Counted from the first letter of the stretch, positions 9,536 through 27,810 are shown. The stretch: DNA of 48,594 nucleotides from Candidatus Woesearchaeota archaeon (GCA_964653605.1 CAZZGW010000001.1:1-48594), one strand, 5' to 3'. Made by a program: numbers and translations. The notes: generated by a model from the sequence alone, not told the origin.

Positions 9536-9550
9536 CTTTTTCTTCAAGGT

Positions 9551-9588
9551 AAAAAAAGTCCCCGAAGGCTAACTCAAATGCTTGGGGG
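9551..9588 (-). terminator. Imperfect hairpin plus T7 run after ORF 9616..10308
   Basis: CCCCGAAG-n13-CTTGGGG. The A7 run on the plus strand gives T7 after the hairpin on the minus strand. Confidence 0.4.
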
Positions 9589-9615
9589 GCTTTTTGTAAA
9601 TTTCATTAATAGGAA

Positions 9616-10308
9616 TTAGGCGCTGGATGCAAGAATTCCAGCAAGAATCATCCAAATCCCCCACCCTCCTAATGCGGAGTAGATGTTTTTGGACTTTGCC
9701 ACCTTACTATAACATTCTAAATAATCTGGGTCTGAAAACTGATAACCCCTTGGCATTGGATCAATAATAACTGCAGGTATTAATGCAAAAACCCCAAAAA
9801 GCAACCCCCCAAGAAAATATCCTCCAGTACTATGTTTCCTTCTGGCATCCCTTGCTCCCCTTGCACAACTTTCCTGGGGATTCATGGCCATTTCCATTAA
9901 TGGAGCATCCCATTTACTCATAGGATCTTTAAAAGAATAATCTGCCACATCAGAAACCGGAATTTTATAGGTATTCCCATCTTCAGCCTTAAATGTTATG
10001 GTGCAATTTTTCACCTTCTTAATTTCCCCATTGAAATACAAGAAATCATTCGGGTCAACTAAAACTTCTCCCCCTTCCGAAGAGTATATGGAAATGGGTT
10101 CCAAATCATTATAAAAATAATCCTCGGGGGCATTTGCCACTTCTGCAGAATAATCTAAAACAGGATATAGAGCAATCACATCATTCATTTCAAATGATTT
10201 GTCACGATTTTTTGCACTTACATTCCCAACAATTCCCAATAATAAAAGAATGCTAAGGAAAGGTAAAAGATACGTCCACAAACTTCTTACTTTTTTCATT
10301 TTTTTCAT
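9616..10308 (-). CDS. Hypothetical secreted protein with C-terminal membrane anchor(s)
   Basis: Signal peptide ...LLLLGIVGNVSA|KN. C-terminal hydrophobic segments GGLLFGVFALIPAVII and GGWGIWMILAGILASSA. Confidence 0.65.
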   Translation of the reverse strand: MKKMKKVRSLWTYLLPFLSILLLLGIVGNVSAKNRDKSFEMNDVIALYPVLDYSAEVANAPEDYFYNDLEPISIYSSEGGEVLVDPNDFLYFNGEIKKVKNCTITFKAEDGNTYKIPVSDVADYSFKDPMSKWDAPLMEMAMNPQESCARGARDARRKHSTGGYFLGGLLFGVFALIPAVIIDPMPRGYQFSDPDYLECYSKVAKSKNIYSALGGWGIWMILAGILASSA

Positions 10309-10405
10309 GATTTTTTGTTTTTGTTTAACAATAAATTTAGAATTGGTCCTACTTTCTCCTCCTTTCTTGTAAGTTTTAAAACTTTAGTAATTAATTCTAA
10401 TTATC

Positions 10406-10582
10406 TCATTTTCTTTCTCTATGTCGAGAAATAATGATAGAATAACCCCAACACAATAGTACTGCTCCAAAAATCCCTGAAGCATTTGATTCTATTTTAT
10501 CTAAGGCCCAAAAGATTCCCCAGAGGATAAGAAAAATTCCTCCGACCATTATGGCTATCCCACAAGATAGATTGTTTTTCAT
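10406..10582 (-). CDS. Hypothetical 58-aa 2-TM mini-protein (below the ORF-track cut-off)
   Basis: My translation: MKNNLSCGIAIMVGGIFLILWGIFWALDKIESNASGIFGAVLLCWGYSIIISRHRERK. GGAGG 7 nt upstream of the ATG. Confidence 0.55.
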   Translation of the reverse strand: MKNNLSCGIAIMVGGIFLILWGIFWALDKIESNASGIFGAVLLCWGYSIIISRHRERK

Positions 10583-10596
10583 TGTTTACCTCCTTT

Positions 10597-10791
10597 CTAT
10601 GCTGCAAAGCCTACAAAGTTTTTATTTTCTCCAGGTCCCTTTCTTCCTTTCCCAGGACTCTTGTTTTTCCCCCTTTCGAAAGTTTTTCTTCCATGGGCAA
10701 TGAGCCTTGAAATCTTTTCGGCTTGAATATTTGGGTAAATTTCCCTTTTGTCTGAAATATGATTTATACATTGCATAATCATGCCCTCCAT
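10597..10791 (-). CDS. Hypothetical small basic protein
   Basis: 64-aa ORF with a K/R/G-rich C-terminus. No family recognised. Confidence 0.4.
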   Translation of the reverse strand: MEGMIMQCINHISDKREIYPNIQAEKISRLIAHGRKTFERGKNKSPGKGRKGPGENKNFVGFAA

Positions 10792-10856
10792 TGTTAAATT
10801 TGTTAAATTAGCTCATTAAAATAAAACTCTTGTGAAGAGAGTTTTTAGGTAGAGAA

Positions 10857-11987
10857 TTAAGTCTTAGCTCTTTTTTGCATATTTTTTCCCACATCCTCTT
10901 CCAGCTTCTTCTTCACTTTCTCCCACTTTTCGTACTCTAATGCCCTCAGTATGGGAAGCATCTTCAATTCATACGCATCTAACCGGTCATGGTGTTTTCT
11001 TACCCATTTTTGATATCCCATTATAAAGAGAATCGAAATGGCCAACAAAGCACCTCCAAACACTAAGAAAATCCAGGGATTGCCCATTATCCAACACTTA
11101 TGATTTATATACGGCAGAATCTTGCGTATAAACCCAAGTGATTTTTCAGTTGTTAATGCTGAATAATAAATTGTTGAAGCGAGTGTGAGCCATAGGAACA
11201 TATGTGCAAACTTGAAAGTATGCGTCTTTATACCTCCAAAAAAGGTATATATCCTGTAAGAGATATTTGAATTCCCCTCAAAGTGCCTCTTATTTACAAG
11301 ATGGATCCAAGAAGCAACCATCCCAAACTGAATGAATGTTACAACCCAATCCAAGGGGTTTCCATCCCTCGCCGGATTATTAAATGGATGCGTCCGGACC
11401 ATAATAAAAACTGGAAGTACATATGAAAGCCCATATAACCCTGCAAGATACCCAAGGATTTTTGCTCTCCTATTGTGGATTTTTAGCAATCTTTTGCCTT
11501 CACTTATCCTTCCCCAGAAAAGAGTGCCTGTATAACTTACTAAAGGTCCTAATCCCCCTATTGCCATGCCAACTCCAAATGTCAAAGGCATTGCCGCAAT
11601 AATGAATGTAAAAAGATTCCAAGTTATAAACTTAGAAAATATTACAAGACAAACCAACGAACCTGCAAAAAGTAAGTATGGCTTTTGATGCATAAAAGAA
11701 GAACCTCCCCTCCTCATGTAAATGCTAACTATTCTTTCATCTTCTGAAAGAAAGAGTTGTCGCATGAAGTGCATCCAAATTACTCCTAAATTTGAAATGC
11801 CCCATCCAAACCATGCAGAATACCAAAGAAACTTTCCATCCAGTTCTGGATCTCCTTTTTCAATGGCATAGTACAAGAATAAAAAGTTTGAGAGAATATA
11901 AACAAGGAGATAACTTCCCCTTAGGAAGTTTGCAAATCTTCTTCCTCTTTCTGCTTTTTCTTTAATGTATTCTACGGTATGTGTCAT
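10857..11987 (-). CDS. Hypothetical polytopic membrane protein (about 9-10 TM, apparent internal two-fold repeat)
   Basis: 376 aa. Two halves share the pattern DG(K/N)xL(W/D)...W(I/M)H...RI(V/Y)(S/T)...GG...F. C-terminal K/E helix. Confidence 0.65.
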   Translation of the reverse strand: MTHTVEYIKEKAERGRRFANFLRGSYLLVYILSNFLFLYYAIEKGDPELDGKFLWYSAWFGWGISNLGVIWMHFMRQLFLSEDERIVSIYMRRGGSSFMHQKPYLLFAGSLVCLVIFSKFITWNLFTFIIAAMPLTFGVGMAIGGLGPLVSYTGTLFWGRISEGKRLLKIHNRRAKILGYLAGLYGLSYVLPVFIMVRTHPFNNPARDGNPLDWVVTFIQFGMVASWIHLVNKRHFEGNSNISYRIYTFFGGIKTHTFKFAHMFLWLTLASTIYYSALTTEKSLGFIRKILPYINHKCWIMGNPWIFLVFGGALLAISILFIMGYQKWVRKHHDRLDAYELKMLPILRALEYEKWEKVKKKLEEDVGKNMQKRAKT

Positions 11988-12054
11988 CGTCTTTTGGTTT
12001 TAAGAAACCTCTCATTCTTGTAAAGAGAATTTTAGGTTTCAAATTATTGCTAAT

Positions 12055-13512
12055 TCATTTTAACTTTACAACCCTTGCAATCCGCAGATTATCTCCATTG
12101 AAAGAATGGTTCCTATCTAACACTGTCCACTCTCCATACTTATGAATTACAAATCCTACACGAATTACATCATTGAATTTTATTTCATCAAGAGATGAAT
12201 AATACATGAATGGTTTTCCATAGGTGCCGGTTTCATACCATACAACATCACTTTTCCCCTCAAGAACTTTTCCAGTAATGATAATTGCAGAACCATTTGA
12301 CCTCATGAAAATCAATTCAACTTTCCAAGTACTTCTGCTTCCAACATCAAGTTCAACAGCAGTTATTGCGCTTTCAGGAAATTCAGGAGTATAAAATTCA
12401 GCCCAATTTTCCCCATATTTGTGTAATACAACGGTTCCATTTCCTTCAGGAGAATTAATTTCATTTATAGAAATCAATCCTTCTTCAAAAAGATAACCTT
12501 TATCCCAATAGTGATGGCTATTATCTGGATGATTAAAATCATCTTGTATACTTGGAGCTGGAATAAAATTACTGCTTTCACAATCACACCCACACAAGAT
12601 AAAATTTGATATTACTTCATCTGGCTGATCAATTCCATCTCCATTATTATCAAAATACCAAATATACATGATTCCAGAACCCCCATCACAATCCCAATGT
12701 GAAAGGAAATTTATTGCATGAAGAGAAGGAGTTTCCCCATTCAATCCATTTTTAGGAATCTCAAATGCAATGGAATCTACAATAACTCCATCAACCTGGC
12801 TAAGGATAATAAATAAATCATCAAAAATATCAAAGGTTATACTAGGGGTTTGTCCATCTTTACCATTCAATCCATCCTGTCCATCTTCACCATCTTTACC
12901 ATTTGTTCCATGCCAAGTGATAAAACCTCCCTTGTATTCATCTCCTTCAGAAACTTTACCATCCCTATTCATATCCCAATACAGCCTGGTTTCGGTTCCA
13001 TATACTTCAATTTCCCCTGCATTATAAACCACTTCAACATATTCTGGAACAAGACTAAATCCTGACTCTCCTAATGGAATCTGTATTATTAAAGTCCCAA
13101 CAAGCTGATCTCCTTTATAGGATTTAGCAATTATGGAGCCTCCTGGAGAATCATCTGTTGGAGGTAAAGCTTCAAGACTCAAGCTTGCATCTAAACCATT
13201 TTTTCCATCTTTTCCATCCTGTCCATCTTCACCATCTTCACCATTTGTTCCATTAAAGAGAGTAAGACTATTATCAAATTTGTCTCCTTCTGTATAGTTT
13301 AAACTATAATCCATGTCTAAATAATAGCTTGTAGTATAACCAAGTAAAACTCCATCTGTTGAATAAACAGGATCTACTTTAGTTACAGAGGAATAGCCAT
13401 CTTTTCCATCCTGACCATCATCCCCGTCATGTACAAAAATATCTTCTGAGCATGACAACATGGCAAATGAAATTGCCAATAAAATTCCGAACACTTTAAC
13501 AAATGTTTTCAT
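12055..13512 (-). CDS. Secreted lipobox protein with three short collagen-like (G-X-Y) tracts and beta-rich domains
   Basis: MKTFVKVFGILLAISFAMLS|C; DGDDGQDGKDG; NGTNGEDGEDGQDGKDGKNG; HGTNGKDGEDGQDGLNGKDG. Confidence 0.75.
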   Translation of the reverse strand: MKTFVKVFGILLAISFAMLSCSEDIFVHDGDDGQDGKDGYSSVTKVDPVYSTDGVLLGYTTSYYLDMDYSLNYTEGDKFDNSLTLFNGTNGEDGEDGQDGKDGKNGLDASLSLEALPPTDDSPGGSIIAKSYKGDQLVGTLIIQIPLGESGFSLVPEYVEVVYNAGEIEVYGTETRLYWDMNRDGKVSEGDEYKGGFITWHGTNGKDGEDGQDGLNGKDGQTPSITFDIFDDLFIILSQVDGVIVDSIAFEIPKNGLNGETPSLHAINFLSHWDCDGGSGIMYIWYFDNNGDGIDQPDEVISNFILCGCDCESSNFIPAPSIQDDFNHPDNSHHYWDKGYLFEEGLISINEINSPEGNGTVVLHKYGENWAEFYTPEFPESAITAVELDVGSRSTWKVELIFMRSNGSAIIITGKVLEGKSDVVWYETGTYGKPFMYYSSLDEIKFNDVIRVGFVIHKYGEWTVLDRNHSFNGDNLRIARVVKLK

Positions 13513-13547
13513 AATTTCTGAATTTTGGTTTATTTTTATTAAATTAT

Positions 13548-14711
13548 TTATTTGGTTCTATTCAAATTTACTGATAGACAAATTTCTGTTGGAGAAATTA
13601 TATATTTCCCTTCCATCCTATGAAAATGCCAAGCTCTCCCAAATTCGGTTAAAGCCAATGTTCCTGCAACCCCTGCACCAATTCTTAGACCCATTATGGT
13701 GTTTGACTTTCGTTTTGCTGCAGAATTATCAGCAGGATAATCCCTAAACACTGGATGCCCCATTATTTCTGTTGTCCCATAAAGACCAAGCCCAATTCCG
13801 CTAAAAATTAATCCGTTGCGAAAGGACTTTTCTGTTTTTCTCCGATAGGGGTTTTCCCAATATTCTATAAATACATTATAACCTGAAATTACTGGGTTTA
13901 CAGGCATATTAAGCATATCCTGATATGTTACACTCTTCCTTAGAATTTCCCATGTCTGCTCGGGATTATCTTTTTTCATTACAACTTCTATAGAATCATC
14001 TTCAATTCTAGAAACAGGTCCAATTTCCCATTCATACTCTGCGGTTCTCATCCCCTTTTCAAACTCTTCAAAATCAAGCGTTTCTAAAATAGGAACAATA
14101 GAGTCTTTGAAAAAATTCCATTCGGATTCATTAACTCCTGAAAAAATAAACCTCCTAAAAAATTCGAGATAATTCTCAAGACATTCTTCACAATCGGCTT
14201 CAACTTCTATAATTTTGTCTTCAATTGTAACCTGGCTTGGAATATTAGAGGATTTGTTAACCATTGCAGCCTTAACCCTTGTTGCAGGATTTCCATTTTT
14301 TGTAGTCCTAGTAACAATCACTGCTGGTTTCTGATTTTCATACTTATCAAGGTGTTTCTGCTGGACTTCACGAATATCCTCCAAAAATCCGATTTCCATT
14401 TTCCGGTGCTTAACTTCTTTTTTCAGACAATCATTTTCTGCTTCCAATTGAACATTTTTAATCATTAATTCCTGCTTCGCTTTTTGCAGGTCATTGATAG
14501 TTTTAACCATCTTATCTCCTGAACACTTTGAAAAGAATAAGATTATTAATAGAAAAATAAACAGGACAATTGCTCCTGCTCTCCACCATTTCTTATTGGT
14601 GTTGTCAATCTCGCGCTGATTTTTTTCAGCTTTTAATTCCCACTTCAAAATCTCTACTTGCTCCTGAGAAGTCTTACCTTCGAGAATTTTGTTTAATTCA
14701 TCTTTTTTCAT
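13548..14711 (-). CDS. Hypothetical single-pass membrane protein with coiled coil and Gly-rich C-terminus
   Basis: TM WWRAGAIVLFIFLLIILFF. Coiled coil INDLQKAKQELMIKNVQLEAENDCLKKE. C-terminal GLIFSGIGLGLYG / GLRIGAGVAGTLA. Confidence 0.65.
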   Translation of the reverse strand: MKKDELNKILEGKTSQEQVEILKWELKAEKNQREIDNTNKKWWRAGAIVLFIFLLIILFFSKCSGDKMVKTINDLQKAKQELMIKNVQLEAENDCLKKEVKHRKMEIGFLEDIREVQQKHLDKYENQKPAVIVTRTTKNGNPATRVKAAMVNKSSNIPSQVTIEDKIIEVEADCEECLENYLEFFRRFIFSGVNESEWNFFKDSIVPILETLDFEEFEKGMRTAEYEWEIGPVSRIEDDSIEVVMKKDNPEQTWEILRKSVTYQDMLNMPVNPVISGYNVFIEYWENPYRRKTEKSFRNGLIFSGIGLGLYGTTEIMGHPVFRDYPADNSAAKRKSNTIMGLRIGAGVAGTLALTEFGRAWHFHRMEGKYIISPTEICLSVNLNRTK

Positions 14712-14814
14712 GGTTTTTAAAATTTAAATTTTTAATTTGTTTATGTTTTACTTGATTTTTTCAATATATGTTGTTCTGCTTCCATGGTCTGAGCATAATA
14801 TTTTTTCCAAAAGA

Positions 14815-14847
14815 AAGAACCTTCATTAGAAAGTCTAAAGAAGGTTC
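14815..14847 (-). terminator. 9-bp hairpin after ORF 14856..15224
   Basis: AGAACCTTC-n15-GAAGGTTCT. Confidence 0.4.
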
Positions 14848-14855
14848 TGTGATTG

Positions 14856-15224
14856 CTAAGCATAAATTTTATTCTTTGATTCTCCAATAGAATCATTTGT
14901 TATCTCATCTCTCTTCTTCAAAAGATTCTCTCTCCACACTTTTGTTTCAAGGGCAATTCTGAAAATCTCCTGGGACCTGTAATAAAGGTGATCCATTAAA
15001 CTATCCAACATCAAAAGATCCTTTATCATTGGAATTACTATTAAACAAAGATAGGGATCATAATCTACTTCAACAATGAAATCTCTGATTACAGAGTTAT
15101 CCTTTAGAAAGCATGCCCCAATTGAAACTGTAATTGGATCATTTTTTGATTCATGGATAAATTCAATAATCTCTGCATCAGATGCCCCTGATTCGGCAAT
15201 TAAAACTGCTAATTTAGAATTCAT
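14856..15224 (-). CDS. Hypothetical cytosolic protein
   Basis: 122-aa ORF in the co-oriented train. No family recognised. Confidence 0.5.
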   Translation of the reverse strand: MNSKLAVLIAESGASDAEIIEFIHESKNDPITVSIGACFLKDNSVIRDFIVEVDYDPYLCLIVIPMIKDLLMLDSLMDHLYYRSQEIFRIALETKVWRENLLKKRDEITNDSIGESKNKIYA

Positions 15225-15261
15225 ACTTTTCTCTTCCTTTTTAATTAATAATTAATTTTGA

Positions 15262-15597
15262 TTATCGCTTATACATATCTTCTTCAATCCTTTTAGAGGC
15301 ACGATTTTGGATGCCCGCAAAGATTAGCAAAATAGCAAAATGGAGATATGCAATTATACAGCCCACTACAAATCCTTTCCAAATAGAAGGAAATATTTCC
15401 TGATTTCCCATAAAGGAAAAATAAAGGAATGCAAGAACAAAAACAATTACCCCTGAAAAAACCGGGCTTGTGTGGATGCTCTTTATTTTAATCCAAATCC
15501 AGGGAAGCGCCAGATACCAAAATGCTCCTGCAAGATACTCAATTAACCATTTGGTTATCCGAAGGTTAAGCCTTAACTTTACCATAAATTTTTTCAT
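15262..15597 (-). CDS. Hypothetical 3-4 TM membrane protein
   Basis: 111 aa, hydrophobic throughout. Overlaps the upstream ORF by 4 nt. Confidence 0.55.
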   Translation of the reverse strand: MKKFMVKLRLNLRITKWLIEYLAGAFWYLALPWIWIKIKSIHTSPVFSGVIVFVLAFLYFSFMGNQEIFPSIWKGFVVGCIIAYLHFAILLIFAGIQNRASKRIEEDMYKR

Positions 15598-16154
15598 GGC
15601 TCCAAGATTAAAGGTTCAACCTTGGATACAAGCCCATCAAAATCAGAGTCTTTATACAATTTTGACCTGTTTGTCTCTACCAGAACAGAACCAAAACATA
15701 GTGAGAGGTTCTCAAGATGATATGTTACTTCAAAAGTTCCTGCCGGTTCATTATTTTCTTCGGATAAATTTCCTCCAATCAAAAGAACATCCCCCGATAA
15801 TGGAAAGATTATCCAAAATTTATTCCCAAAATTCCAGGAAATAAACCCTCTCCCTTTTTCCTTTTGTGCAAGGTCTTCCAATTCCTTTAAGGTAAACTTC
15901 TTGACATAGGAAGGCCTGTATTCTCCTTCTTCCCAAATTGTTATTAAAACAAGATTCTTACTTGGATCTTCCTTCAAGATTGTGTTGAAGTATAGAGAGG
16001 TTCCATATCCTTGATTTTCAAAGGATTCTGCTTTTCCAACCAAGCAGGGGGACATTTCAAAAACATATTCTCCTAAAATGTTTTTAATTATTTGCGCATC
16101 CGCATTAATTGTGAATGCAATAATTCCTAGCACTACAAGAATTAGATTTTTCAT
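15594..16154 (-). CDS. Hypothetical secreted protein
   Basis: Signal peptide MKNLILVVLGIIAFTINADA|Q. 186 aa. Confidence 0.6.
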   Translation of the reverse strand: MKNLILVVLGIIAFTINADAQIIKNILGEYVFEMSPCLVGKAESFENQGYGTSLYFNTILKEDPSKNLVLITIWEEGEYRPSYVKKFTLKELEDLAQKEKGRGFISWNFGNKFWIIFPLSGDVLLIGGNLSEENNEPAGTFEVTYHLENLSLCFGSVLVETNRSKLYKDSDFDGLVSKVEPLILEP

Positions 16155-16190
16155 CTTTTCTCTTTTTTTGTTTTTAATTAATATTTATGT

Positions 16191-16445
16191 TTATTTTCTA
16201 TATGCTATTTTGTTTTCAATAAACAAAACTAATCTCAACAGAACTAAAACCATAAGGTAAGTAAAGAATATGGCTAATCCAAAAGAGACATTTGGATGTA
16301 TTGACCAGGATTCAAACCCTCCAACTATAAAGTTAAAAAATCCCAAGATTAATTTTCCAATTTTTTGAGAAACCAATCCCAAACTAACAAGCAATGTCCA
16401 CAAGGATACTGCTATCCATAACATTCTAAAGGTTTTTCTTTTCAT
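16191..16445 (-). CDS. Hypothetical 3-TM mini membrane protein
   Basis: 84 aa, hydrophobic. Confidence 0.5.
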   Translation of the reverse strand: MKRKTFRMLWIAVSLWTLLVSLGLVSQKIGKLILGFFNFIVGGFESWSIHPNVSFGLAIFFTYLMVLVLLRLVLFIENKIAYRK

Positions 16446-16457
16446 CTTTTCTTGGAT

Positions 16458-16940
16458 TTAATTACTCGTTGTTATTTTCTTTTTTCCCTCTCTTACACCT
16501 AAAATTGAGGAAACCACAAATCCCCCAAATAAAAGTATTATTGATGATGTGACTACCCAATTAATATGGATTGTTTCAAAGAAACCATTTCCTCTCAGAA
16601 GAGAAGAAATCATAACGCCTAAAAAGATTATTACTATAGCTAAAAAAGGTAAGGCCATTCCCAGTGCCACCTTATTTGCAAATTCATTCCTGAAATTATC
16701 AAAATGAATTCCTTTTTCTTCACAAGATTCATTCAGGAAATCAATAAAGAAAATGCTTCCAAGGAATGCTTCCAAACAACCTACAAAAAAGCCAAACACA
16801 TTCCAAAGGTCTGAAGGTTTTCCTATTTCTCCTAAGAATAATCCTTGAAAGAAATCTATTCTTTTAAACAGCATATAAATTACTGTTGCAAAGAAAAATA
16901 TTGCCAAACTTAGATTTATTATTTTTTCTGTTCTTTTCAC
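16458..16940 (-). CDS. Hypothetical 4-TM membrane protein
   Basis: 160 aa with four hydrophobic segments. Confidence 0.55.
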   Translation of the reverse strand: MKRTEKIINLSLAIFFFATVIYMLFKRIDFFQGLFLGEIGKPSDLWNVFGFFVGCLEAFLGSIFFIDFLNESCEEKGIHFDNFRNEFANKVALGMALPFLAIVIIFLGVMISSLLRGNGFFETIHINWVVTSSIILLFGGFVVSSILGVREGKKKITTSN

Positions 16941-17076
16941 AATTTCTAAGATTTAAATTTAATTATTTATTTTATTTTTCTCTATATCTTGATTCGCTTC
17001 TTACTAAGCGAATTATTATCTCCAATTTAAAGTCAAGCGTATCAAGCCCTGACTCCAACCAACTTCACATGTTGAG

Positions 17077-17313
17077 TTATTCACTTTCATAAATAACTTC
17101 ACATTTTTTATTGAAAACCTTATTAACAACATCCAAAGGAATTGATGAGGCAGATGCCAAGCACCCTTTTTCAAAAGAACCTGTAAAAGCATCCAAGACA
17201 ATTACCTTGTCTCCTACTTTAGATAATTTTCCAACCTCTTGCTTCTTCATTCCATATTGCTCATAATGAACAATAACCCAATCTCCTACATAATTTTTCA
17301 TCTTGTTTTTCAT
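17077..17313 (-). CDS. Hypothetical small cytosolic beta-rich protein
   Basis: 78 aa: GDWVIVHYEQYGMKKQEVGKLSKVGDKVIVLD (SH3/KOW-like feel only). Confidence 0.45.
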   Translation of the reverse strand: MKNKMKNYVGDWVIVHYEQYGMKKQEVGKLSKVGDKVIVLDAFTGSFEKGCLASASSIPLDVVNKVFNKKCEVIYESE

Positions 17314-17364
17314 GATTTATAAAATTTAATAAATATTAATATTGATTTTACTGGATTTTTTACA

Positions 17365-17556
17365 TTATTTTACTTTGTTTCTCTTTTTATCAATCTTATT
17401 GAATATTCTAATCCCTATAAGGATCATAATGAGTAGGATAAGTAATCCAATGGCAATTCCAAAATTGAGGAGTGCTCCATTGATTATTCCGACTATTGCG
17501 ATTATTGCACAAAGGGGAATGGCTGCTTGACGAATAAATTCTCTTAAGGTTTCCAT
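17365..17556 (-). CDS. Hypothetical 2-TM mini membrane protein (first gene of the membrane-protein train)
   Basis: 63 aa. AT-rich TATA-like region and the GAAATACC array lie upstream. Confidence 0.5.
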   Translation of the reverse strand: METLREFIRQAAIPLCAIIAIVGIINGALLNFGIAIGLLILLIMILIGIRIFNKIDKKRNKVK

Positions 17557-17611
17557 CTCGATTTTTATTTAGTTTATGTTGATTTATTTGTTATATTATT
17601 AATATATTAAA

Positions 17612-17687
17612 ACAGGGTATTTCCTGTGTAATTTCAGTGTATTCCGAGGTTATTTCGGGGTATTTCATGTGTGAAATAAGTGTATTT
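17612..17687 (-). promoter_or_regulatory. Phased array of 5 GAAATA(C)C boxes upstream of the membrane-protein train
   Basis: Minus strand reads catGAAATACCccGAAATAACCtcgGAATACACtGAAATTACacagGAAATACCctg, box spacing 9-12 nt, about 55-130 nt upstream of ATG 17556. Confidence 0.5.
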
Positions 17688-17875
17688 GTAATTCTATTGA
17701 TAGAAATTCTTAAGCACTCTAAAGCGAGTTGCTTCTTTTGTATCTTGTGGTTGTTAATCCAACTTCAAGACTAAGAGTTCAATGCGTTACATAACCTATT
17801 ATTAATCTTACCTTGTTGTTCCTTTCGTTTTATTGATTGATTGGAAATTTGGTTTGACTAATGTGCGGGGGTGTA

Positions 17876-19963
17876 TTAATTGATGTTCTCTAAGGGTTGT
17901 GTTTGTGATTTATTTAATGAATTTGATAACCTGATGAACTTTTTCCAGCCGGTTTTACTTTTTTGTTCTTCTACTGCTACTACTTCTTTTTCCATTAGTT
18001 TATTCTTGAGAGAATTCCCTTTTCTTGCTGAGAATCCCATGTTCTTGTAAAGTTCAACAGTACTGTAATTGTGATTTGGAAATTCCATTAAGAAACTTAA
18101 AAATATTTTTTCTTCATCTTCAAAGTTATCTAAGAATGCTTGATCTAGCTTTTCTTGATTTTCTTGTATTTCTTTTTCTGTATCTATTTCTGAAAATTCT
18201 ACAACTGGCTGATTTAATTGTTCACTTATTACTTTGCTCATTACAATTAAAACATCTTCAGAAGTGTAACCATTTTTGTTTACTCCAGATTCTAATACTT
18301 TTTCTATGTTCTTTAAGTCATGGCCTTTTGCCATTTCTTCTTTTACAAAACTAAAAAGCACTCCTTGAGAGTATTCTGGATCATAAACTTCATCTTCAGT
18401 TATTCCAGAGATTTCACTTTCCTGTGTATTTTGAGGTATTTCACCTATTTCACTGTGTGGGTGTTCCAGGGTTCTTTCATGTTCTTTCAATTTAGAAATA
18501 CCCCATTTACTATGTTCCGCTTCCTGTTCAATTGTTATTGCATCCATAAATTCTGGATCTTCCCTTTCGGCTTCAATTCCTTGCATTATTGCATCTGCTC
18601 TTGAAGTTATTTTCTCGTCTGAAATCGATTGTTCTGTTAGTGCCATATAGGGGGTTTTAACTAAGAATGGGAGGGTATATCTTTCTGATAACTTAACAAC
18701 TGCAGACCCAACTTTCAACTGGGAGAATGCTTCTTTCTTTTGGTGTAATTGGGTTATGGAGCTTATATCGTAAATATCTTGGGGTAATTGCTGTTGGAAT
18801 GCTACGTGGCATGCGCTATTTCCCTTTACTGTATCTGATAACTTTGAAATATGTTGGTCTAAACAAATAAGGCTAGTCCCATATTCCCTCATTTCCCTAT
18901 AAGCCATATCTGTAATTGATTCTGAGATAAAATTTGTTTTATCTTTTAAGAAAACATTGTGTGCTTCATCAACTAAAATTGCATAATCAAAATCCCCATT
19001 AGATTTGTGTGGGGAGGCTTTCTTTTGTTTGTAAATATATGTTAAAACGAACTCGCAAAAGAATTTCTTTTCTATGTTTCCTAAGGAATTTAACTCGAAT
19101 ACAGCCCTTTTATTGAATAAATCTTCAACAGACAAGCTTTTCTTACCTTCATAATTTATTACGTTTCCAAATGCTCCAAAAGTTAAAACTGAGGCTATTC
19201 TTAATGCACTTTCAAGCCACTCAGACTCTCTTCCTCTTGCATCTCTTGCTTTTTGTTCAAGCATTTTCTTAACATGTAACCAATTAGGATAATGTCTTTT
19301 TTCTTCTGGAAGTTTGTAAATATCCCATCCTTCAAAAATCTCATCAAGAGTTTCTAAAAGAATTTTATGAACACCAAATGAAGCTGAGAAACTTTCAGTA
19401 AGCAAATCTGCTAAAACATTAATCCATTCTTTTGGTGCAACTCCTTTTGGAGGAACATTAATATTTGTTTTGAATAAATTTGCAACTGAATCATTTCCAA
19501 TTGTAAAAACCATTAAACTTGGATCCACATTCACAAGGGGACGGAAACTTCTTTTCCAATCAAAGACTAAAAAAGGTTTGTCTTTTCCAATAAAGTTTTC
19601 AAGAATATTAAATGCAAAATTTGTTTTACCAGAACCACTCATACCAGTAATACAAACGTGTCTTGGCCAATCTTTTTCATTTAATCCAAAAGTGTATAAT
19701 TCTTTATCTGCATAAATTATATTCCCAAGAGGGTATTCCCCTATTATTTCCGATTGTTTTGGAGGTTCTAAAAGTAAACTTTGATCTAAAAGTTTGTTAA
19801 GATTTTTTTGATAAAGTAAAGTTATAACTTGCAAAATTTCATTTTTTTCTTCCAATGAATTTGCTACAGCGTATTGGGCATAAATTCTATCAATTTTTTC
19901 TCCAAAAAAAGGTTTTAATTTTCTACACATATCTTCAACTGTTAGACTTCTTTGATTCATCAT
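17876..19963 (-). CDS. FtsK/HerA-superfamily P-loop ATPase with acidic linker and C-terminal winged-helix domain
   Basis: Walker A RHVCITGMSGSGKTN. FLVFDWKRSF. Walker B YAILVDEAHNVF. REYGTSLICLDQH. C-terminal IFLSFLMEFPNHNYSTVELYKNMGFSARKGNSLKNKLMEKEVV. Confidence 0.8.
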   Translation of the reverse strand: MMNQRSLTVEDMCRKLKPFFGEKIDRIYAQYAVANSLEEKNEILQVITLLYQKNLNKLLDQSLLLEPPKQSEIIGEYPLGNIIYADKELYTFGLNEKDWPRHVCITGMSGSGKTNFAFNILENFIGKDKPFLVFDWKRSFRPLVNVDPSLMVFTIGNDSVANLFKTNINVPPKGVAPKEWINVLADLLTESFSASFGVHKILLETLDEIFEGWDIYKLPEEKRHYPNWLHVKKMLEQKARDARGRESEWLESALRIASVLTFGAFGNVINYEGKKSLSVEDLFNKRAVFELNSLGNIEKKFFCEFVLTYIYKQKKASPHKSNGDFDYAILVDEAHNVFLKDKTNFISESITDMAYREMREYGTSLICLDQHISKLSDTVKGNSACHVAFQQQLPQDIYDISSITQLHQKKEAFSQLKVGSAVVKLSERYTLPFLVKTPYMALTEQSISDEKITSRADAIMQGIEAEREDPEFMDAITIEQEAEHSKWGISKLKEHERTLEHPHSEIGEIPQNTQESEISGITEDEVYDPEYSQGVLFSFVKEEMAKGHDLKNIEKVLESGVNKNGYTSEDVLIVMSKVISEQLNQPVVEFSEIDTEKEIQENQEKLDQAFLDNFEDEEKIFLSFLMEFPNHNYSTVELYKNMGFSARKGNSLKNKLMEKEVVAVEEQKSKTGWKKFIRLSNSLNKSQTQPLENIN
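18408..18463 (-). repeat. Intragenic GTGAAAT(A/C) box array inside the ATPase linker-coding region
   Basis: Minus strand reads GTGAAATAGGTGAAATACCtcAAAATACacaggaaaGTGAAATC and encodes HSEIGEIPQNTQESEIS. Confidence 0.5.
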
Positions 19964-20406
19964 TTTAATTCCCCTTCCCTATCAAGAATTTTTTGAAGTT
20001 TAGAGGGAACGAAATACTTTACATCCATTGTTTTAAGATATTCTTCAGAATTTCTAATTGAACTATCCACCTCATCAAAAGAAGCACTTTTACTAAAATC
20101 TCCTTGAGCCCTTCTTCTTTCTGCAACTTGTAGAGGATTTACGTGAGTAACGACTCCTGCGTGGAAAGGAGCTTTACCCTCGGCAATATGTTTTGAGAAC
20201 CAACCAACAAGATATCCTCTTTCTGGTTTTTCAGATTCTTGAAGCCCTTCAAGAACTTCTTCTGAACCGTATCTTTGAACAAACTCATCTTTAGTCCTTT
20301 CCAAAGCTACATAAAGCGCTGTTCCAAGAGAATTTGAAGTTCCACTTGATTCTACGGATTTTATTTTTCCTTCCATTTCTCTGTAAAATCTTGTTTTTGC
20401 TTTCAT
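19960..20406 (-). CDS. Hypothetical protein, translationally coupled to the ATPase (4-nt overlap)
   Basis: 148 aa. No family recognised. Confidence 0.6.
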   Translation of the reverse strand: MKAKTRFYREMEGKIKSVESSGTSNSLGTALYVALERTKDEFVQRYGSEEVLEGLQESEKPERGYLVGWFSKHIAEGKAPFHAGVVTHVNPLQVAERRRAQGDFSKSASFDEVDSSIRNSEEYLKTMDVKYFVPSKLQKILDREGELK

Positions 20407-20873
20407 TATGCTGCTTTAGCAAAATCCCCTTGAGAGTATCTTACTAATTGATTTACTTTTTCTTGAGGAATAGTTTTTCTTAATCCTTTATCTAGAATTT
20501 TCAAAAGGTTAGTTGCGTTTTCTTTTAACTCAACTTCAAGGGATTCTTTCAATTCTTTCTCAGTTGGATTGCTAAAATATTCTCTTGTCTTAACAGTTGC
20601 TTTGTAAAAATTATCTACACCATTGAACATTTCTAATGACTTTATCAACGCAGATTCATTAGCAATTCTTACTAGGTTGCTTGTATCTTCAACTTCCTCT
20701 CCAGTGTATTGTTTTCTCATTTCCAGGTCATATCCAAGAGTCATTCCGGTGAATATTTCTGCAGTTTGTAAATTGAAGCATCCTCTAGCTTCTGCTTTAA
20801 GGTATTTCCCATATTCTTCAGCATTCATTTCCTTTGTTTCTTTATCTGATTTCATCTTAATTTTCCTCATCAA
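20406..20873 (-). CDS. Hypothetical protein (operon member)
   Basis: 155 aa. 1-nt overlap with the downstream ORF. Confidence 0.6.
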   Translation of the reverse strand: MMRKIKMKSDKETKEMNAEEYGKYLKAEARGCFNLQTAEIFTGMTLGYDLEMRKQYTGEEVEDTSNLVRIANESALIKSLEMFNGVDNFYKATVKTREYFSNPTEKELKESLEVELKENATNLLKILDKGLRKTIPQEKVNQLVRYSQGDFAKAA

Positions 20874-21309
20874 GCAATTTATTTATTGAATTTACTCTTT
20901 CTTCTTTTTCACTTAATTCTTGTTCTTGGGACCTAAGTTCTTTCTTAAGTAAAGCTACATCTTTCCAAGAATCAATTTTTTCTTTCATTTGAATTTCAGA
21001 GATTTCTATCTTTTTTGTTCTAAGTAAGTTCTTTTCTTTCATCAAATCCGCTTTTTCAAACTCAGTAGTATTTTCATTTTCTAAAAGGAAGTTATTAATT
21101 TCAGTCTTAACTGACTCTCCTTCTTTAATGAAGTTTTCGCTAAGCTCTTCTCTTTCATTTATCAAAATTCCTATGTCTTTGACAGAGTCTTTCAAGGCAT
21201 TAATTTTGGCTAGGCCTATCTTTGTCAGATCAGAGCCCGAGCTAGTTATTTCAGGTTTTTCAAAGCTTATTACGGGTTTTCCACCCTTTAAAAGATCACT
21301 TATTTCCAT
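20857..21309 (-). CDS. Hypothetical coiled-coil protein (first gene of the ATPase operon)
   Basis: 150 aa, K/E/L heptad-like. TTTATAAAG about 25 nt upstream of the ATG. Confidence 0.6.
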   Translation of the reverse strand: MEISDLLKGGKPVISFEKPEITSSGSDLTKIGLAKINALKDSVKDIGILINEREELSENFIKEGESVKTEINNFLLENENTTEFEKADLMKEKNLLRTKKIEISEIQMKEKIDSWKDVALLKKELRSQEQELSEKEERVNSINKLLDEEN

Positions 21310-21425
21310 AATTATATAGTAGTAACATACTTTATAAATGTTTCTATCTTGTTGCTATTATATAATGGGTACAAACTAAGAAAAGAAAGTTTAAATAAGT
21401 CGGATTTTTGATAAATTAGTCTTGT

Positions 21426-21458
21426 GCGGAGTTGCCGGAGTGGTCAGACTCAGAATCA
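21426..21458 (+). pseudogene. Partial duplicate of the tRNA-Leu 5' region
   Basis: GCGGAGTTGCCGGAGTGGTCA (21/21 identical to 21500-21520), then GACTCAGAATC (compare GACTCAAAATC of the anticodon arm). No T-arm or 3' acceptor. Confidence 0.6.
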
Positions 21459-21499
21459 AAATTCTGGTGCTATCCCCCTCCAACCCAAAAAAACAGAAT

Positions 21500-21583
21500 G
21501 CGGAGTTGCCGGAGTGGTCAAACGGGACGGACTCAAAATCCGTTAGCTTAGTGCTTACACAGGTTCGAACCCTGTACTCCGCA
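21500..21583 (+). tRNA. tRNA-Leu (anticodon CAA)
   Basis: Acceptor GCGGAGT/ACTCCGC, anticodon stem ACGGA/TCCGT with loop CTCAAAA, long variable arm, T-arm ACAGG TTCGAAC CCTGT. Confidence 0.85.
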
Positions 21584-21756
21584 TATATTCTTTTAGATGG
21601 TGATAATAAATATAAAGGAAATTTTTCTATTTATGAAATATGGGAAGATTAAATGGCTTGGAAACAAGAATCTTTGGGGAGCTTATTTCTGAAGAAAATC
21701 CGGAAAGATATCTTGAAAAACAAGCTCTTTTAAAGAAAATTTAAGGAAAAATATAA

Positions 21757-21783
21757 GTGAAATACCCGAAATACCTTGAAATC
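21757..21783 (+). promoter_or_regulatory. GAAATACC box array upstream of ORF 21834..22109
   Basis: GTGAAATACCcGAAATACCttGAAATC followed by TATATTAAAAAA. Inverted relative to the 17.6-kb array, so it has the same orientation relative to its downstream gene. Confidence 0.5.
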
Positions 21784-21833
21784 TATATTAAAAAACAATA
21801 ATTAATATAAAATATCAAATCCTTGATTCTTAT

Positions 21834-22109
21834 ATGGGCATAGAAGAAGAATTACCGGGATTAAGGAAAGGATTTTCTCAGGAATTGAAAGATACTCCTG
21901 ATTTTTTGGGTCATAAAGTTATAAGGCAAAGCAAGGTTGATGAGGCTTATAGAAAGTTTCTAAATAAAAAATATAGAGATAAATGGATTGATGTAGATTA
22001 TAAGATTTTCTTTAATGACGAATTTTTTGTAGAAAAAATTATGAAAAATTTTGGATTCAATAAGGGAAGTGGAAATCTTGGGCAGGAAAGTTTTTATTTT
22101 AAAAAGTAG
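21834..22109 (+). CDS. Hypothetical protein
   Basis: 91-aa ORF. No family recognised. Confidence 0.5.
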   Translation: MGIEEELPGLRKGFSQELKDTPDFLGHKVIRQSKVDEAYRKFLNKKYRDKWIDVDYKIFFNDEFFVEKIMKNFGFNKGSGNLGQESFYFKK

Positions 22110-22213
22110 AGACCGAATGATTTATAAACCGAAATAATCTAGGAATCTTACCTGCGAGTTTACGCGTAAGCGGGGGCATAAATGCTCTTTCTCGTTAAAT
22201 TAAGGTAATTAAA

Positions 22214-22600
22214 ATGACTAAATCAAAAACAAGGATAGAAAAACAATTACAAAAGAAAAGTAATCCAGAATTAGTTGAGACAATAATCCAAGCAAAAAAG
22301 AAAGAAGCATGGAATGAAGTTGCAGACTTACTTTCTGGTCCAAGGAGAAAAAAGGTTAATTTGAATTTAACAGAATTAAACGGGGTAGAAGCTGGAGATA
22401 AGGATATTCTTGTTATTCCGGGAAAAGTTCTCTCTGAAGGAAGTGTTGATAAAAAGTTAAAAATTGCTGCAATGGGCTTTTCTGAAAGAGCCAAAGAAAA
22501 GTTGTTAAAGACTGGATGTAAACTTTCAAGTATACTAGAAGAAATTAAATCAAACCCTGCTGGTAAAGATCTAAAAATCTTAAGGAAACAAATAAAATGA
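22214..22600 (+). CDS. rpl18e: 50S ribosomal protein L18e
   Basis: NPELVETI......LLSGPRRKKVNLNLTELN....ILVIPGKVLSEG. Followed by L13-S9 as in archaea. Confidence 0.9.
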   Translation: MTKSKTRIEKQLQKKSNPELVETIIQAKKKEAWNEVADLLSGPRRKKVNLNLTELNGVEAGDKDILVIPGKVLSEGSVDKKLKIAAMGFSERAKEKLLKTGCKLSSILEEIKSNPAGKDLKILRKQIK

Positions 22601-26846: not shown

Positions 26847-26878
26847 TTTTGTTCACTTAGGTTAAGTTAGTTAATTTT
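26847..26878 (+). repeat. Copy 1 of dispersed motif TTGT(T/G)CACTTAGGTTA(A/G)GT
   Basis: ttttGTTCACTTAGGTTAAGTTAGTTAAtttt, followed by a TATA-like tttttattataaaa. Confidence 0.7.
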
Positions 26879-26913
26879 TATTATAAAAGCAAATTATTTT
26901 ACTTATCAACGCC

Positions 26914-27237
26914 TTATTTTATTGGGAGTCTAAGGTTTTTTACTGCACTTTCAAGAGTTTCTTTTGAATTGGCTTTTACCCCTAATAATTTTTTTCCTTC
27001 ATGTTCTGTGAACTCACTATATGCTCCTTCAACTAAATATTTCCCAGGACTAAGAAAACTATTGGATATGTTAAAAAGAGCGGTTCTTGTTGAATCAATT
27101 TTTTCTTCTGGAACTTGGATAGGATTTAAATGAACATAACTTAAACGTTCCTTCCAAAAAGTTTCTCCTTCTTCCCCACTACATAACCGTTGCCTAAGAC
27201 CATTTTTTTTTTCAAGATTTAGAGAATATTTAAGGAT
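26914..27237 (-). pseudogene. Start-less 107-codon ORF remnant next to an A10 homopolymer and an out-of-frame ATG
   Basis: My translation: ...LRQRLCSGEEGETFWKERLSYVHLNPIQVPEEKIDSTRTALFN...KNLRLPIK*. No in-frame ATG/GTG/TTG. The ATG at 27203 is in another frame and stops after 20 codons. Confidence 0.3.
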
Positions 27238-27305
27238 TTATATCTTGAAATAAGAAATTTAGTGTTTTTAGGCCTTAAAATAGACTTATTTAGTTATATG
27301 GCTTA

Positions 27306-27337
27306 TTTTTGTTCACTTAGGTTAGGTTAATTATTTT
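27306..27337 (+). repeat. Copy 2 of the CACTTAGGTTAGGT motif
   Basis: tttttGTTCACTTAGGTTAGGTTAAttatttt. Confidence 0.7.
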
Positions 27338-27383
27338 AAGGTGACTTTTAGAGAGTTATTATTCTTTTTTATCTTTTTTTAGA

Positions 27384-27677
27384 TTAGGGGTATACTGGTT
27401 TATCTCTAAGCCACCTGGTTGTTAAAAATATTAAAAATGCACAAATAATTGTTATAAAAACAGATGCCCAAACACTTGTTGCATTTGGATTTGTGGGATG
27501 GGTCAACCAAACAATCAATGCTTTTGAAAGATCAAAAATTGTTTCACGCCAGGTAAATGCAATTGTAAACCCTAAAGTGAAGATTATAAACATCCTCATT
27601 TGCTTTCTAAATTCTTGTCTATATTGATTTCCAAGATAGAAATAATTTCTAATTCTCCTCTTTTTTATTGGGCTCAT
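27384..27677 (-). CDS. Small 2-TM membrane protein (DUF5654-like)
   Basis: EFRKQMRMFIIFTLGFTIAFTWRETIFDLSKAL... plus a second TM. 97 aa. Confidence 0.5.
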   Translation of the reverse strand: MSPIKKRRIRNYFYLGNQYRQEFRKQMRMFIIFTLGFTIAFTWRETIFDLSKALIVWLTHPTNPNATSVWASVFITIICAFLIFLTTRWLRDKPVYP

Positions 27678-27783
27678 TTCAATGAAAAAGCGTATTCATG
27701 TTTTTATATTTTTGGTTAAATTTTTTTTATTTTCATAATCTTTTTTTGAGGTAAATTTTGTTAATTCATAGTTAATCCCAGGG

Positions 27784-27810
27784 GTTGTGCACTTAGGTTA
27801 GGTAAGTTTT
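27784..27810 (+). repeat. Copy 3 of the CACTTAGGTTAGGT motif
   Basis: gttGTGCACTTAGGTTAGGTAAGtttt. Confidence 0.7.

What the first reader, a model, noticed from the sequence alone, without database searches (positions are those of the whole stretch)
17612..21783. Phased GAAATACC box arrays at three sites: two promoter-proximal in inverted orientation, one inside the ATPase gene
The minus strand at 17687-17612 carries five GAAATA(C)C boxes spaced 9-12 nt, roughly one helical turn, just upstream of the TATA-like region of the membrane-protein train. The plus strand at 21757-21783 carries GTGAAATACCcGAAATACCttGAAATC upstream of ORF 21834. This is nearly the same 20-mer as 17646-17668 but inverted, so its orientation relative to the downstream gene is the same. 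A third array (18408-18463) lies inside the ATPase gene, where it encodes the SEIGEIPQNTQESEIS linker. Together they bracket the ATPase operon and tRNA-Leu. They could be operators for an island wHTH protein, recognition sites for the ATPase wHTH, or terminal inverted repeats.
Basis: seen in the sequence. Interest (0 to 1): 0.62.

Follow-up and report, generated by a model that had tools for sequence, protein, structure and literature searches.

The report
Phased DNA docking boxes beside motor ATPase
The repeated word GAAATACC is a real DNA signal, conserved in dozens of tiny uncultivated archaea and spaced one DNA helical turn apart, that always sits beside one accessory DNA-motor-like ATPase carrying a DNA-binding tail, so it is most likely the docking site of that protein.

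Summary
Sites A (17688-17616, minus) and B (21759-21785, plus) are real and far beyond chance. Site C, inside the ATPase gene, is most likely a by-product of an E-I-P-rich protein linker.

In 73 non-redundant related loci, GAAATACC is the most enriched 8-mer in the 500 nt after the ATPase stop codon (45/73 loci, about 26-fold). It is almost always on the sense strand (222:30). Box-to-box spacings fall on multiples of 10.5 nt (Rayleigh p about 1e-19).

In 22 carrier genomes, all 10 exact box pairs lie inside this module. A blind pattern search of 121 genomes of the order hit 8 genomes; 7 of them carry the ATPase.

The ATPase has a HerA/VirB4-type fold and a nearly invariant C-terminal winged helix. 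It is an accessory gene, present in about 7% of genomes of the phylum. In this clade it lies in an island inserted between rpoD and tRNA-Leu/L18e.

Best reading: the boxes are double-stranded-DNA docking sites for the ATPase's own winged helix, placed at the promoters that flank its operon. Whether docking controls transcription, loads a DNA translocase (as TraB does at clt), or both is unresolved. The terminal-inverted-repeat reading is rejected.

The parts
17616..17688 (-). Site A: a weak box (CAAATACA 17688-17681) and one inverted box (GTGAAATAA, plus strand 17671-17679), then five forward boxes GAAATACC / GAAATAAC / GGAATACA / GAAATTAC / GAAATACC at 10-12 nt spacing.
   Evidence: It is the only box triple in the genome. 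It is conserved nearly base for base in L066/L068 and L001.
17600..17612 (-). A/T-rich TATA-like stretch directly after the last box of site A. It lies 44 nt upstream of the ATG at 17556, which starts the first small membrane-protein gene (17365-17556).
   Evidence: In relatives, TATA-like stretches follow the last box in 18% of cases against 8% for other boxes (p=0.046). The 63-aa product has a TM-like segment.
17703..17771 (-). Conserved non-coding block with two inverted repeats (GTCTTG..GTTG/CAAC..CAAGAT and AAGCAACTCG../..GAGTGCTT), just upstream of site A.
   Evidence: The block is invariant in the three close relatives, so covariation cannot be assessed.
17876..19963 (-). 695-aa ATPase of the HerA/VirB4 clade with no transmembrane segment. 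Residues 479-526 and 585-606 are predicted disordered.
   Evidence: Pfam DUF87 and Zot. AF2 plus Foldseek give DndH-C, HerA and VirB4 as top hits, E 1e-13 to 1e-10. NCBIfam gives a weak CedD match. No TM-like segment.
17924..18112 (-). [quoted passage not shown]
   Evidence: AF2 pLDDT above 90. Foldseek matches MarR/PadR regulators, the Orc1/Cdc6 winged helix and TFE-alpha. Nearly invariant in 73 loci.
18408..18451 (-). Site C: box-like words inside the ATPase linker, encoding SEIGEIPQNTQESEIS. Probably a by-product of the coding sequence.
20857..21309 (-). g150, the first gene of the operon. It encodes a soluble coiled-coil protein and is the only other conserved gene of the module.
   Evidence: tblastn finds it in 65 of 72 loci. 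No Pfam family. No TM-like segment.
21245..21261 (-). Weaker box-like words lie at 21282-21275 and 21306-21299.
   Evidence: Forward boxes at this position occur in most loci and in all three reading frames (46:17:16).
21331..21338 (-). TATA box TTTATAAA of the g150 operon. It lies in the conserved context atagaaaNatttataaa and ends 21 nt upstream of the ATG, which implies a leaderless mRNA.
21759..21785 (+). Site B: GAAATACC-c-GAAATACC-tt-GAAATCTA. It lies upstream of TATA-like stretches (21784-21795 and 21802-21813) and of ORF 21834-22109.
   Evidence: Not conserved in L066/L068 or L001.
21426..21584 (+). tRNA-Leu(CAA) at 21499-21584, preceded by a 21-nt copy of its own 5' end at 21426-21446. 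In close relatives, two boxes lie between the tRNA's TATA and its 5' end.

Best explanation
The GAAATACC boxes are oriented recognition sites on double-stranded DNA. They belong to a two-gene accessory module of DPANN archaea. The module consists of g150, a coiled-coil protein, and a soluble HerA/VirB4-type hexameric-motor ATPase whose C-terminus carries a winged helix on a long flexible linker.

The boxes sit on one face of the helix, with spacings that are multiples of 10.5 bp. The main array lies 100-400 bp after the ATPase stop codon and runs up to the A/T-rich promoter region of the following, hypervariable membrane-protein genes. A second cluster lies at the operon's own start. In many lineages an inverted box sits between the TATA box and the leaderless ATG of g150. 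In most loci forward boxes sit 45-65 nt into g150.

Proposed mechanism, all inferred: several winged helices of one ATPase oligomer dock together on an array. This tethers the motor at the two boundaries of its operon. From there it occludes or gates the adjacent promoters, which would give autoregulation plus control of the membrane-protein genes.

Shown: the boxes exist; they are conserved, oriented, phased and exclusive to the module; the winged helix exists and is conserved. Inferred: who binds the boxes and what binding does.
For: - GAAATACC is the top 8-mer after the ATPase stop: present in 45 of 73 loci, about 26-fold enriched.
- There are 106 exact sense-strand boxes at +100 to +600 and about none elsewhere in the loci.
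- Orientation is 222 forward to 30 reverse.
- Spacings peak at 10-11, 20-22, 31-32, 41-42 and so on up to about 125 nt. On 81 spacer clusters the best period is 10.5-10.7 nt, R=0.74, p about 1e-19.
- All 10 exact box pairs in 22 carrier genomes lie inside the module.
- Blind search: 7 of the 8 genomes hit by the pair pattern carry the ATPase, and 5 of the 7 non-self pairs lie within 450 nt of it.
- Boxes in the g150 coding start occur in all three frames, as EIP/EKP or as GNT/WNT/RNT.
- An inverted box lies between the TATA and the leaderless ATG in about 13 lineages.
- Boxes lie between the TATA and the tRNA-Leu start in L066/L068 and L001.
- Only g150 and the ATPase are conserved in the module.
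- The winged-helix fold is confirmed and nearly invariant.
- The helix residue after RKG[NT] tracks box position 2. With I the count is 41 GAAATACC to 0 GGAATACC; with K it is 33 to 26. By my reading of the tree, 0 of 3 independent I clades but 6 of 7 K clades contain GGAATACC.
Against: - There is no binding data, no transcript data and no mapped 5' ends.
- TATA adjacency of the last box is only weakly significant (18% against 8%, p=0.046).
- In several loci the last box lies less than 36 nt from the next ATG or just before a Shine-Dalgarno-like GGAGG. Those boxes must be transcribed.
- Some spacers, and the box/anti-box pairs in one clade, form hairpins with compensatory changes. These fold more strongly on the sense strand. 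A pure operator model does not predict this.
- The helix-box covariation is confounded by shared ancestry.
Confidence: 0.5

Rival explanations
1. Same binder, different purpose. The array is a clt-like or pac-like loading site. The winged helices dock the hexameric motor on the island's DNA at a defined place and polarity. The motor then pumps double-stranded DNA through an envelope apparatus built by the downstream membrane proteins, as Streptomyces TraB does at its clt locus. Promoter effects would be secondary.
For: - The ATPase fold is nearest to dsDNA translocases: HerA, VirB4 and DndH. It gives a weak CedD match and a PHROG packaging-ATPase match.
- The 8-bp oriented direct repeats plus inverted repeats lie right after the motor gene. 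This resembles clt loci, which hold direct 8-bp repeats read by the TraB C-terminal wHTH and may overlap the 3' end of the tra gene (PMC4447253, PMC3583192).
- The module is accessory, present in 14 of 200 genomes, and lies in an island absent from relatives.
- 12 of 14 downstream ORFs have TM-like segments.
Against: - The motor has no membrane anchor and is not FtsK-like.
- No free plasmid or viral copy was found.
- A second box cluster inside the operon's own promoter and 5' end fits regulation better.
- No homology to Spd, Tra or Ced membrane components was detected.
Confidence: 0.22
2. The boxes are operators for a different protein, not the ATPase tail. Candidates are a host-encoded transcription factor or chromatin protein, or g150.
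For: - The promoter-proximal positions.
- A single box abuts the TATA-like stretch of the unrelated tRNA-Leu(AAG) at 3001-3008.
Against: - The arrays occur only in genomes that carry the module, and only inside it. A host factor would be expected to have other targets.
- g150 has no recognisable DNA-binding domain.
- No other module protein is conserved.
Confidence: 0.12
3. The element works as RNA. The intergenic region would be a structured leader, 3' UTR or small RNA, in which GAAAUACC motifs and hairpins are read by an RNA-binding protein or pair with anti-box sequences such as GGUAUUUC.
For: - The strong sense-strand bias.
- In one clade the box and anti-box form hairpins with compensatory inner-stem changes, z -2.5 to -5.8.
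- The first spacers of many arrays fold better on the sense strand.
- G-U pairs outnumber A-C pairs 40 to 21 in box/anti-box pairs.
- Some boxes lie just before a Shine-Dalgarno-like sequence.
Against: - The 10.5-nt phasing over more than 100 nt has no RNA rationale.
- Boxes occur upstream of TATA boxes, on the opposite strand at site B, and between TATA and start sites.
- There is no Rfam match.
- RNAalifold found no consensus structure on the MAFFT alignment.
- There is no expression data.
Confidence: 0.1
4. The array is the replication origin of the integrated element. The boxes would be iterons next to an A/T-rich unwinding region, bound by an initiator-helicase (the ATPase with its winged helix) that also represses its own promoter through inverted copies.
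For: - Phased direct repeats lie next to a 55-nt A/T-rich stretch and next to the gene for a hexameric motor with a winged helix.
- Inverted copies lie at the motor's own promoter.
- The winged helix resembles the Orc1/Cdc6 winged helix among others.
Against: - HerA/VirB4-type ATPases are not known replication initiators.
- No free replicon carrying the module was found.
- The A/T-rich stretch is equally explained as a promoter.
Confidence: 0.05

Closest known systems
Streptomyces TraB and its clt locus (pSVH1, pJV1, pWTY27; actinomycete conjugative elements)
   Same: A single hexameric motor ATPase has a C-terminal winged helix that reads short (7-9 bp) direct repeats. The repeats are clustered, together with inverted repeats, right beside or overlapping the 3' end of the motor's own gene. 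The element is accessory or mobile and also encodes small membrane proteins (PMC4447253, PMC3583192).
   Different: Here the motor fold is HerA/VirB4/DndH-like, not FtsK/SpoIIIE. It has no N-terminal membrane anchor. The boxes are helically phased and also sit in promoter positions at the operon start. The host is an archaeon. Neither binding nor transfer has been shown.
FtsK gamma domain with KOPS, and SpoIIIE with SRS
   Same: A winged helix at the C-terminus of a pumping ATPase reads an oriented 8-bp word (from my own knowledge of these systems).
   Different: KOPS and SRS are scattered and strand-skewed over a whole chromosome. Here there are only 41 copies in 729 kb, and arrays occur at one locus only.
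Archaeal promoter-proximal repeat operators or activator sites, for example EarA sites upstream of the Methanococcus fla promoter (from my own knowledge)
   Same: Several short direct repeats lie just upstream of the BRE/TATA of a surface-structure operon. Repressor-type positions lie between the TATA and the start site.
   Different: The putative reader is the tail of a 695-aa motor ATPase rather than a small regulator. The arrays hold up to 9 phased boxes over more than 100 bp. The system is confined to a mobile module.
Plasmid iterons with Rep initiators
   Same: Phased direct repeats lie beside an A/T-rich stretch and next to the gene of their winged-helix reader. Inverted copies lie at that gene's promoter (from my own knowledge).
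Ced/Ted DNA-exchange ATPases (CedB, CedD) of Crenarchaea
   Same: They are HerA/VirB4-clade ATPases that work with small membrane proteins in archaeal DNA transfer (PMC11868833). CedD is the best NCBIfam match.
   Different: The CedD match scores 54 bits against a cut-off of 600. [quoted passage not shown] That paper describes no winged helix and no cis-acting repeat array for Ced proteins.

Membership tests
TraB/clt system (Streptomyces) | FtsK/SpoIIIE-type motor domain | tested here: not met
   Pfam gives DUF87 (HerA) and Zot, not FtsK_SpoIIIE. The Foldseek top 50 are DndH-C, HerA and VirB4.
TraB/clt system (Streptomyces) | N-terminal transmembrane anchor | tested here: not met
   No 19-aa window reaches Kyte-Doolittle 1.6 anywhere in the 695 aa.
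TraB/clt system (Streptomyces) | C-terminal winged helix that reads the repeats | tested here: inconclusive
   The fold is present and conserved. Binding to the boxes was not tested. Support is covariation only.
TraB/clt system (Streptomyces) | Cluster of short direct (and inverted) repeats next to or overlapping the 3' end of the motor gene | tested here: met
   Arrays lie 100-400 nt after the stop codon in most of the 73 loci. Inverted repeats are present. Overlap with the gene (site C) is not supported.
TraB/clt system (Streptomyces) | cis-acting requirement for DNA transfer | not testable with these tools
   This needs mating or transfer assays.
FtsK-KOPS type polar sequences | Genome-wide, strand-skewed distribution of the 8-mer | tested here: not met
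   There are 41 copies in 729 kb and arrays at one locus only.
HerA/VirB4 clade of the FtsK-HerA superfamily | HerA-type P-loop ATPase fold | tested here: met
   Pfam DUF87, E 6e-9. Foldseek gives HerA 4d2i, VirB4 4ag5 and DndH 7es4, with probability 1.0.
Winged helix-turn-helix DNA-binding domains | Three helices followed by a beta-hairpin wing, with structural matches to DNA-bound winged helices | tested here: met
   The AF2 model has helices 90-101, 109-115 and 120-132 and strands 136-142 and 147-153, with pLDDT above 90. It matches MarR, MepR-DNA, SlyA-DNA and Orc1-DNA structures. Pfam HTH_36 is sub-threshold.
Known Rfam RNA families | Match to a curated covariance model | tested here: not met
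   Only the tRNA matches in 17000-22300 at E up to 1.
Terminal inverted repeats of the island | Inverted copies at both island ends | tested here: not met
   The rpoD-proximal left end (from 7487) has no box. Site A is internal to the island. The family-wide arrangement is direct.
Known anti-phage defence systems (PADLOC) | Match of the module's proteins to a defence-system model | tested here: not met
   Only weak, generic HerA and mad8 matches.

The most novel reading that the evidence does not exclude
A widespread family of integrative elements in DPANN archaea moves or exports double-stranded DNA with a relaxase-free, single-motor system. A soluble HerA/VirB4-type ATPase is loaded by its own winged helix onto a polar, helically phased array of 8-bp boxes. 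This would be the first clt-like cis site in archaea. The motor would feed DNA to a fast-evolving set of envelope proteins encoded just downstream, and the same boxes would double as the switch for those genes.
Probability: 0.22. Interest if true: 0.85.

Novelty: new variant of a known kind. Interest (0 to 1): 0.66.

Why it matters
DPANN archaea are uncultivated, genome-reduced symbionts. Their gene regulation, mobile elements and cell-to-cell exchange are almost unknown.

This work gives a precise, testable pair: one 8-bp word and one 63-residue winged helix. The pair is conserved across dozens of lineages and marks an accessory module next to a hypervariable set of envelope proteins.

- If the tail binds the boxes, this would be an experimentally tractable protein-DNA recognition code in these organisms, and a handle on an undescribed surface or DNA-transfer apparatus.
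- The box array is also a practical search key. The DNA pattern alone found carriers of the module in a blind genome search.
- If the boxes turn out to be ordinary operators, the system still shows a motor ATPase used as a sequence-specific regulator.

Tried and rejected
- **Chance or low complexity:** rejected by shuffles, genome counts and conservation.
- **Core housekeeping gene cluster:** I first thought so because about 1000 homologs share at least 50% identity. I rejected it because only 3 of 61 genomes of the order and 14 of 200 high-quality genomes of the phylum carry the ATPase. Seven non-carrier relatives have rpoD-tRNA-Leu-L18e contiguous.
- **Terminal inverted repeats:** rejected.
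- **Site C as a DNA array:** rejected on codon usage and relatives.
- **Known RNA family:** none found.
- **RNAalifold on the clade-specific hairpin:** Single-sequence folds do show the hairpin.
- **Transcript evidence:** no RNA runs hold the window. Metatranscriptomes from a relative's site laid no reads.
- **Virus or plasmid origin:** no relative in IMG/VR. Only 23-28% identical DUF87 proteins on bacterial plasmids and in two phage contigs. Three 24-25 kb contigs that looked like possible replicons have no terminal overlap; two of them show the ATPase module beside three L18e/L13/S9-sized ORFs (L18e/L13 match for one confirmed).
- **Defence system:** only generic HerA matches.
- **Literature:** no relevant paper mentions GAAATACC or GGTATTTC, or this module.
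- **att site at the island's left end:** no copy of the tRNA 5' 21-mer there.

Full report
**What is in the window**

The window comes from a 729-kb, 32% G+C DPANN-type archaeal MAG. The closest related records are labelled Woesearchaeota, Pacearchaeota or Nanoarchaeota.

On the minus strand, a four-gene operon runs from 21309 to 17876. Its genes are g150 (coiled coil), g155, g148 and a 695-aa ATPase. None of the four has a TM-like segment. Of the 14 ORFs downstream on the same strand (17556 to 7650), 12 do.

Site A has five boxes at 10-12 nt spacing, followed by a TATA-like stretch and the first small membrane-protein gene. Site B has three boxes on the opposite strand, upstream of ORF 21834.

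**Is it more than chance?**

- GAAATACC occurs 10 times in the window against 1.75 expected.
- It occurs 41 times in the genome, 7 of them within these 4.2 kb.
- Elsewhere in the genome the word occurs singly.
- Site A is the only triple in the genome.

**Conservation in relatives**

I collected 147 loci that encode relatives of the ATPase.

- Site A is conserved almost base for base in the two closest relatives, whose ATPases are 84% and 77% identical. The first 100 nt after the stop codon cannot be aligned.
- An unbiased 8-mer count over 73 non-redundant loci ranks GAAATACC first in the 500 nt after the ATPase stop. It is present in 45 of 73 loci, about 26-fold over the rest of the loci.
- A position plot gives 106 exact sense-strand boxes between +100 and +600 and essentially none elsewhere. 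The exceptions are a small cluster inside the gene and a mixed-orientation cluster at the operon start.
- Orientation is 222 forward to 30 reverse.

**Helical phasing**

Box-to-box distances pile up at 10-11, 20-22, 31-32, 41-42, 53, 64, 74, 84-85, 95-96, 105, 116 and 125 nt. After collapsing similar spacers into 81 clusters, a Rayleigh test peaks at a period of 10.5-10.7 nt, with R=0.74 and p about 1e-19. The spacers within an array are unrelated in sequence, so the arrays are not recent tandem duplications. Phasing with the B-DNA repeat is the strongest argument that the boxes are read on double-stranded DNA from one face.

**Exclusivity**

- In 22 whole carrier genomes (about 17 Mb), the pattern GAAATACC-N(1-30)-GAAATACC occurs 10 times, and every hit lies inside the ATPase module.
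- In a blind search of 121 genomes of the same order, the pattern hit 8 genomes. This is no more than the 7 hits of the backwards control.
- However, 7 of those 8 genomes carry the ATPase. Five of the 7 non-self pairs lie within 450 nt of the ATPase gene.

The word array and the ATPase therefore travel together.

**The module and its host site**

- Only g150 (65 of 72 loci) and the ATPase are conserved. The genes between them and downstream of them are not.
- The ATPase is accessory: 3 of 61 genomes of the order and 14 of 200 high-quality genomes of the phylum carry it.
- Genomes of the same genus carry versions only 57-60% identical to the window's.
- Seven non-carrier relatives have rpoD, tRNA-Leu and L18e next to each other, with no boxes.
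- All 12 loci of the window's ATPase clade sit between rpoD and L18e, with 3-10 kb of variable genes.

**The candidate reader**

- The C-terminal 169 aa fold with high confidence into a small helical domain, a disordered acidic linker and a winged helix.
- The winged helix matches MarR/PadR regulators, Orc1/Cdc6 and TFE-alpha.
- Its recognition helix, S-x-R-K-G-[NT]-x-[IV]-K, is nearly invariant.
- The motor domain matches DndH-C, HerA and VirB4, not FtsK. There are weak CedD and packaging-ATPase family matches.
- Lineages with isoleucine after RKG[NT] use only GAAATACC (41:0). Lineages with lysine use GGAATACC about as often as GAAATACC (33 GAAATACC to 26 GGAATACC). By my reading of the tree, this holds in 0 of 3 I clades against 6 of 7 K clades. 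This is suggestive but confounded by phylogeny.

A conserved word needs a conserved reader, and the ATPase tail is the only conserved DNA-binding domain in the module.

**Where the boxes sit relative to genes**

- The g150 promoter is a textbook BRE/TATA (atagaaaNatttataaa in the window). Its TATA ends 21-23 nt upstream of the ATG, which implies a leaderless mRNA.
- About 13 lineages have an inverted box exactly between the TATA and the ATG.
- Most loci have forward boxes at +45 to +65 in g150. They occur in three reading frames, as EIP/EKP or as GNT/WNT/RNT. The window's copy is 21261-21245, which I call site D.
- In the two closest relatives, two boxes lie between the TATA and the 5' end of tRNA-Leu. 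The window has lost these and has site B on the other side of the tRNA.
- After the main array, the last box is followed by a TATA-like stretch more often than other boxes are, but only weakly so.

These positions fit promoter occlusion or gating.

**What does not fit a simple operator model**

- In one clade the box pairs with an anti-box around an inner stem that shows compensatory changes.
- The first spacers of many arrays are hairpins that fold better on the sense strand.
- G-U pairs exceed A-C pairs 40 to 21 in box/anti-box pairs.
- Some boxes lie just upstream of a Shine-Dalgarno-like sequence.

Streptomyces clt loci also combine direct and inverted repeats. An RNA-level role for part of the region therefore remains open.

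**Site C**

The ATPase linker is rich in the tripeptide E-I-P. Its codon usage for that tripeptide is ordinary, and distant relatives use GAAATTCC. I regard site C as a by-product of the coding sequence.

**Verdict**

The most likely reader is the ATPase's own winged helix. The functional outcome is unresolved between transcriptional gating and loading of a DNA motor. No relevant paper in the searched library mentions the motif or the module.

Noticed in passing
window 21426-21446 and 21499-21584: A 21-nt exact copy of the tRNA-Leu(CAA) 5' end lies 53 nt upstream of the intact gene. The only TATA-like box (gtttaaataag, about 21390) precedes the partial copy, not the intact tRNA. In relatives the same TATA directly precedes the tRNA, with two boxes in between.
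   Followed up: partly
window 7487-22213: Seven non-carrier relatives have rpoD, tRNA-Leu and L18e within about 300 nt of each other. The window therefore has extra DNA on both sides of the tRNA: 14 kb on the left, and about 450 nt on the right holding site B and ORF 21834. All 12 loci of the window's ATPase clade use this same chromosomal site, which suggests site-specific integration.
   Followed up: partly
window 3001-3008 (minus): A single exact GAAATACC lies directly before a TTTTTATA stretch, about 30 nt upstream of the unrelated tRNA-Leu(AAG) at 2885-2970. This could be chance or a further target.
   Followed up: no
window 17703-17771 (minus): Two inverted repeats lie in a non-coding block that is invariant in the three closest relatives, just upstream of site A. 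A TATA-like TTAATAATA lies about 25 nt before the block, so a small RNA starting there is possible.
   Followed up: partly
window 18400-18470; ATPase residues 503-519: The disordered ATPase linker carries repeated E-I-P / E-I-S / E-I-T peptides in many relatives. The codons of E-I-P spell the box word, so the protein linker and the DNA boxes share a word. I found no evidence that this is more than coincidence.
   Followed up: partly
window 12845-13430 (minus-strand ORF 12055-13512): The 485-aa ORF has 9-nt-periodic collagen-like Gly-X-Y repeats and weak PHROG matches to collagen-like tail fibre proteins. It also has an N-terminal TM-like or signal segment.
   Followed up: no
window 9398-9523 and 10388-10513: A 126-nt direct repeat (84% identical) lies upstream of two neighbouring minus-strand ORFs (8751-9308 and 9616-10308). 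This looks like a duplicated upstream region within the island.
   Followed up: no
window 26849-27808: Three copies of a 24-nt word (TTGTTCACTTAGGTTAAGTTAGTT, 88-100% identical) are spaced 460 and 476 nt apart. They lie near the region that another note calls a replication origin.
   Followed up: no
G322, G300 and G332 (same genus as the window): Genomes of the same genus carry ATPase versions only 57-60% identical to the window's, while a MAG from elsewhere (L066) has 84%. This argues for exchange or replacement of the module between lineages.
   Followed up: no
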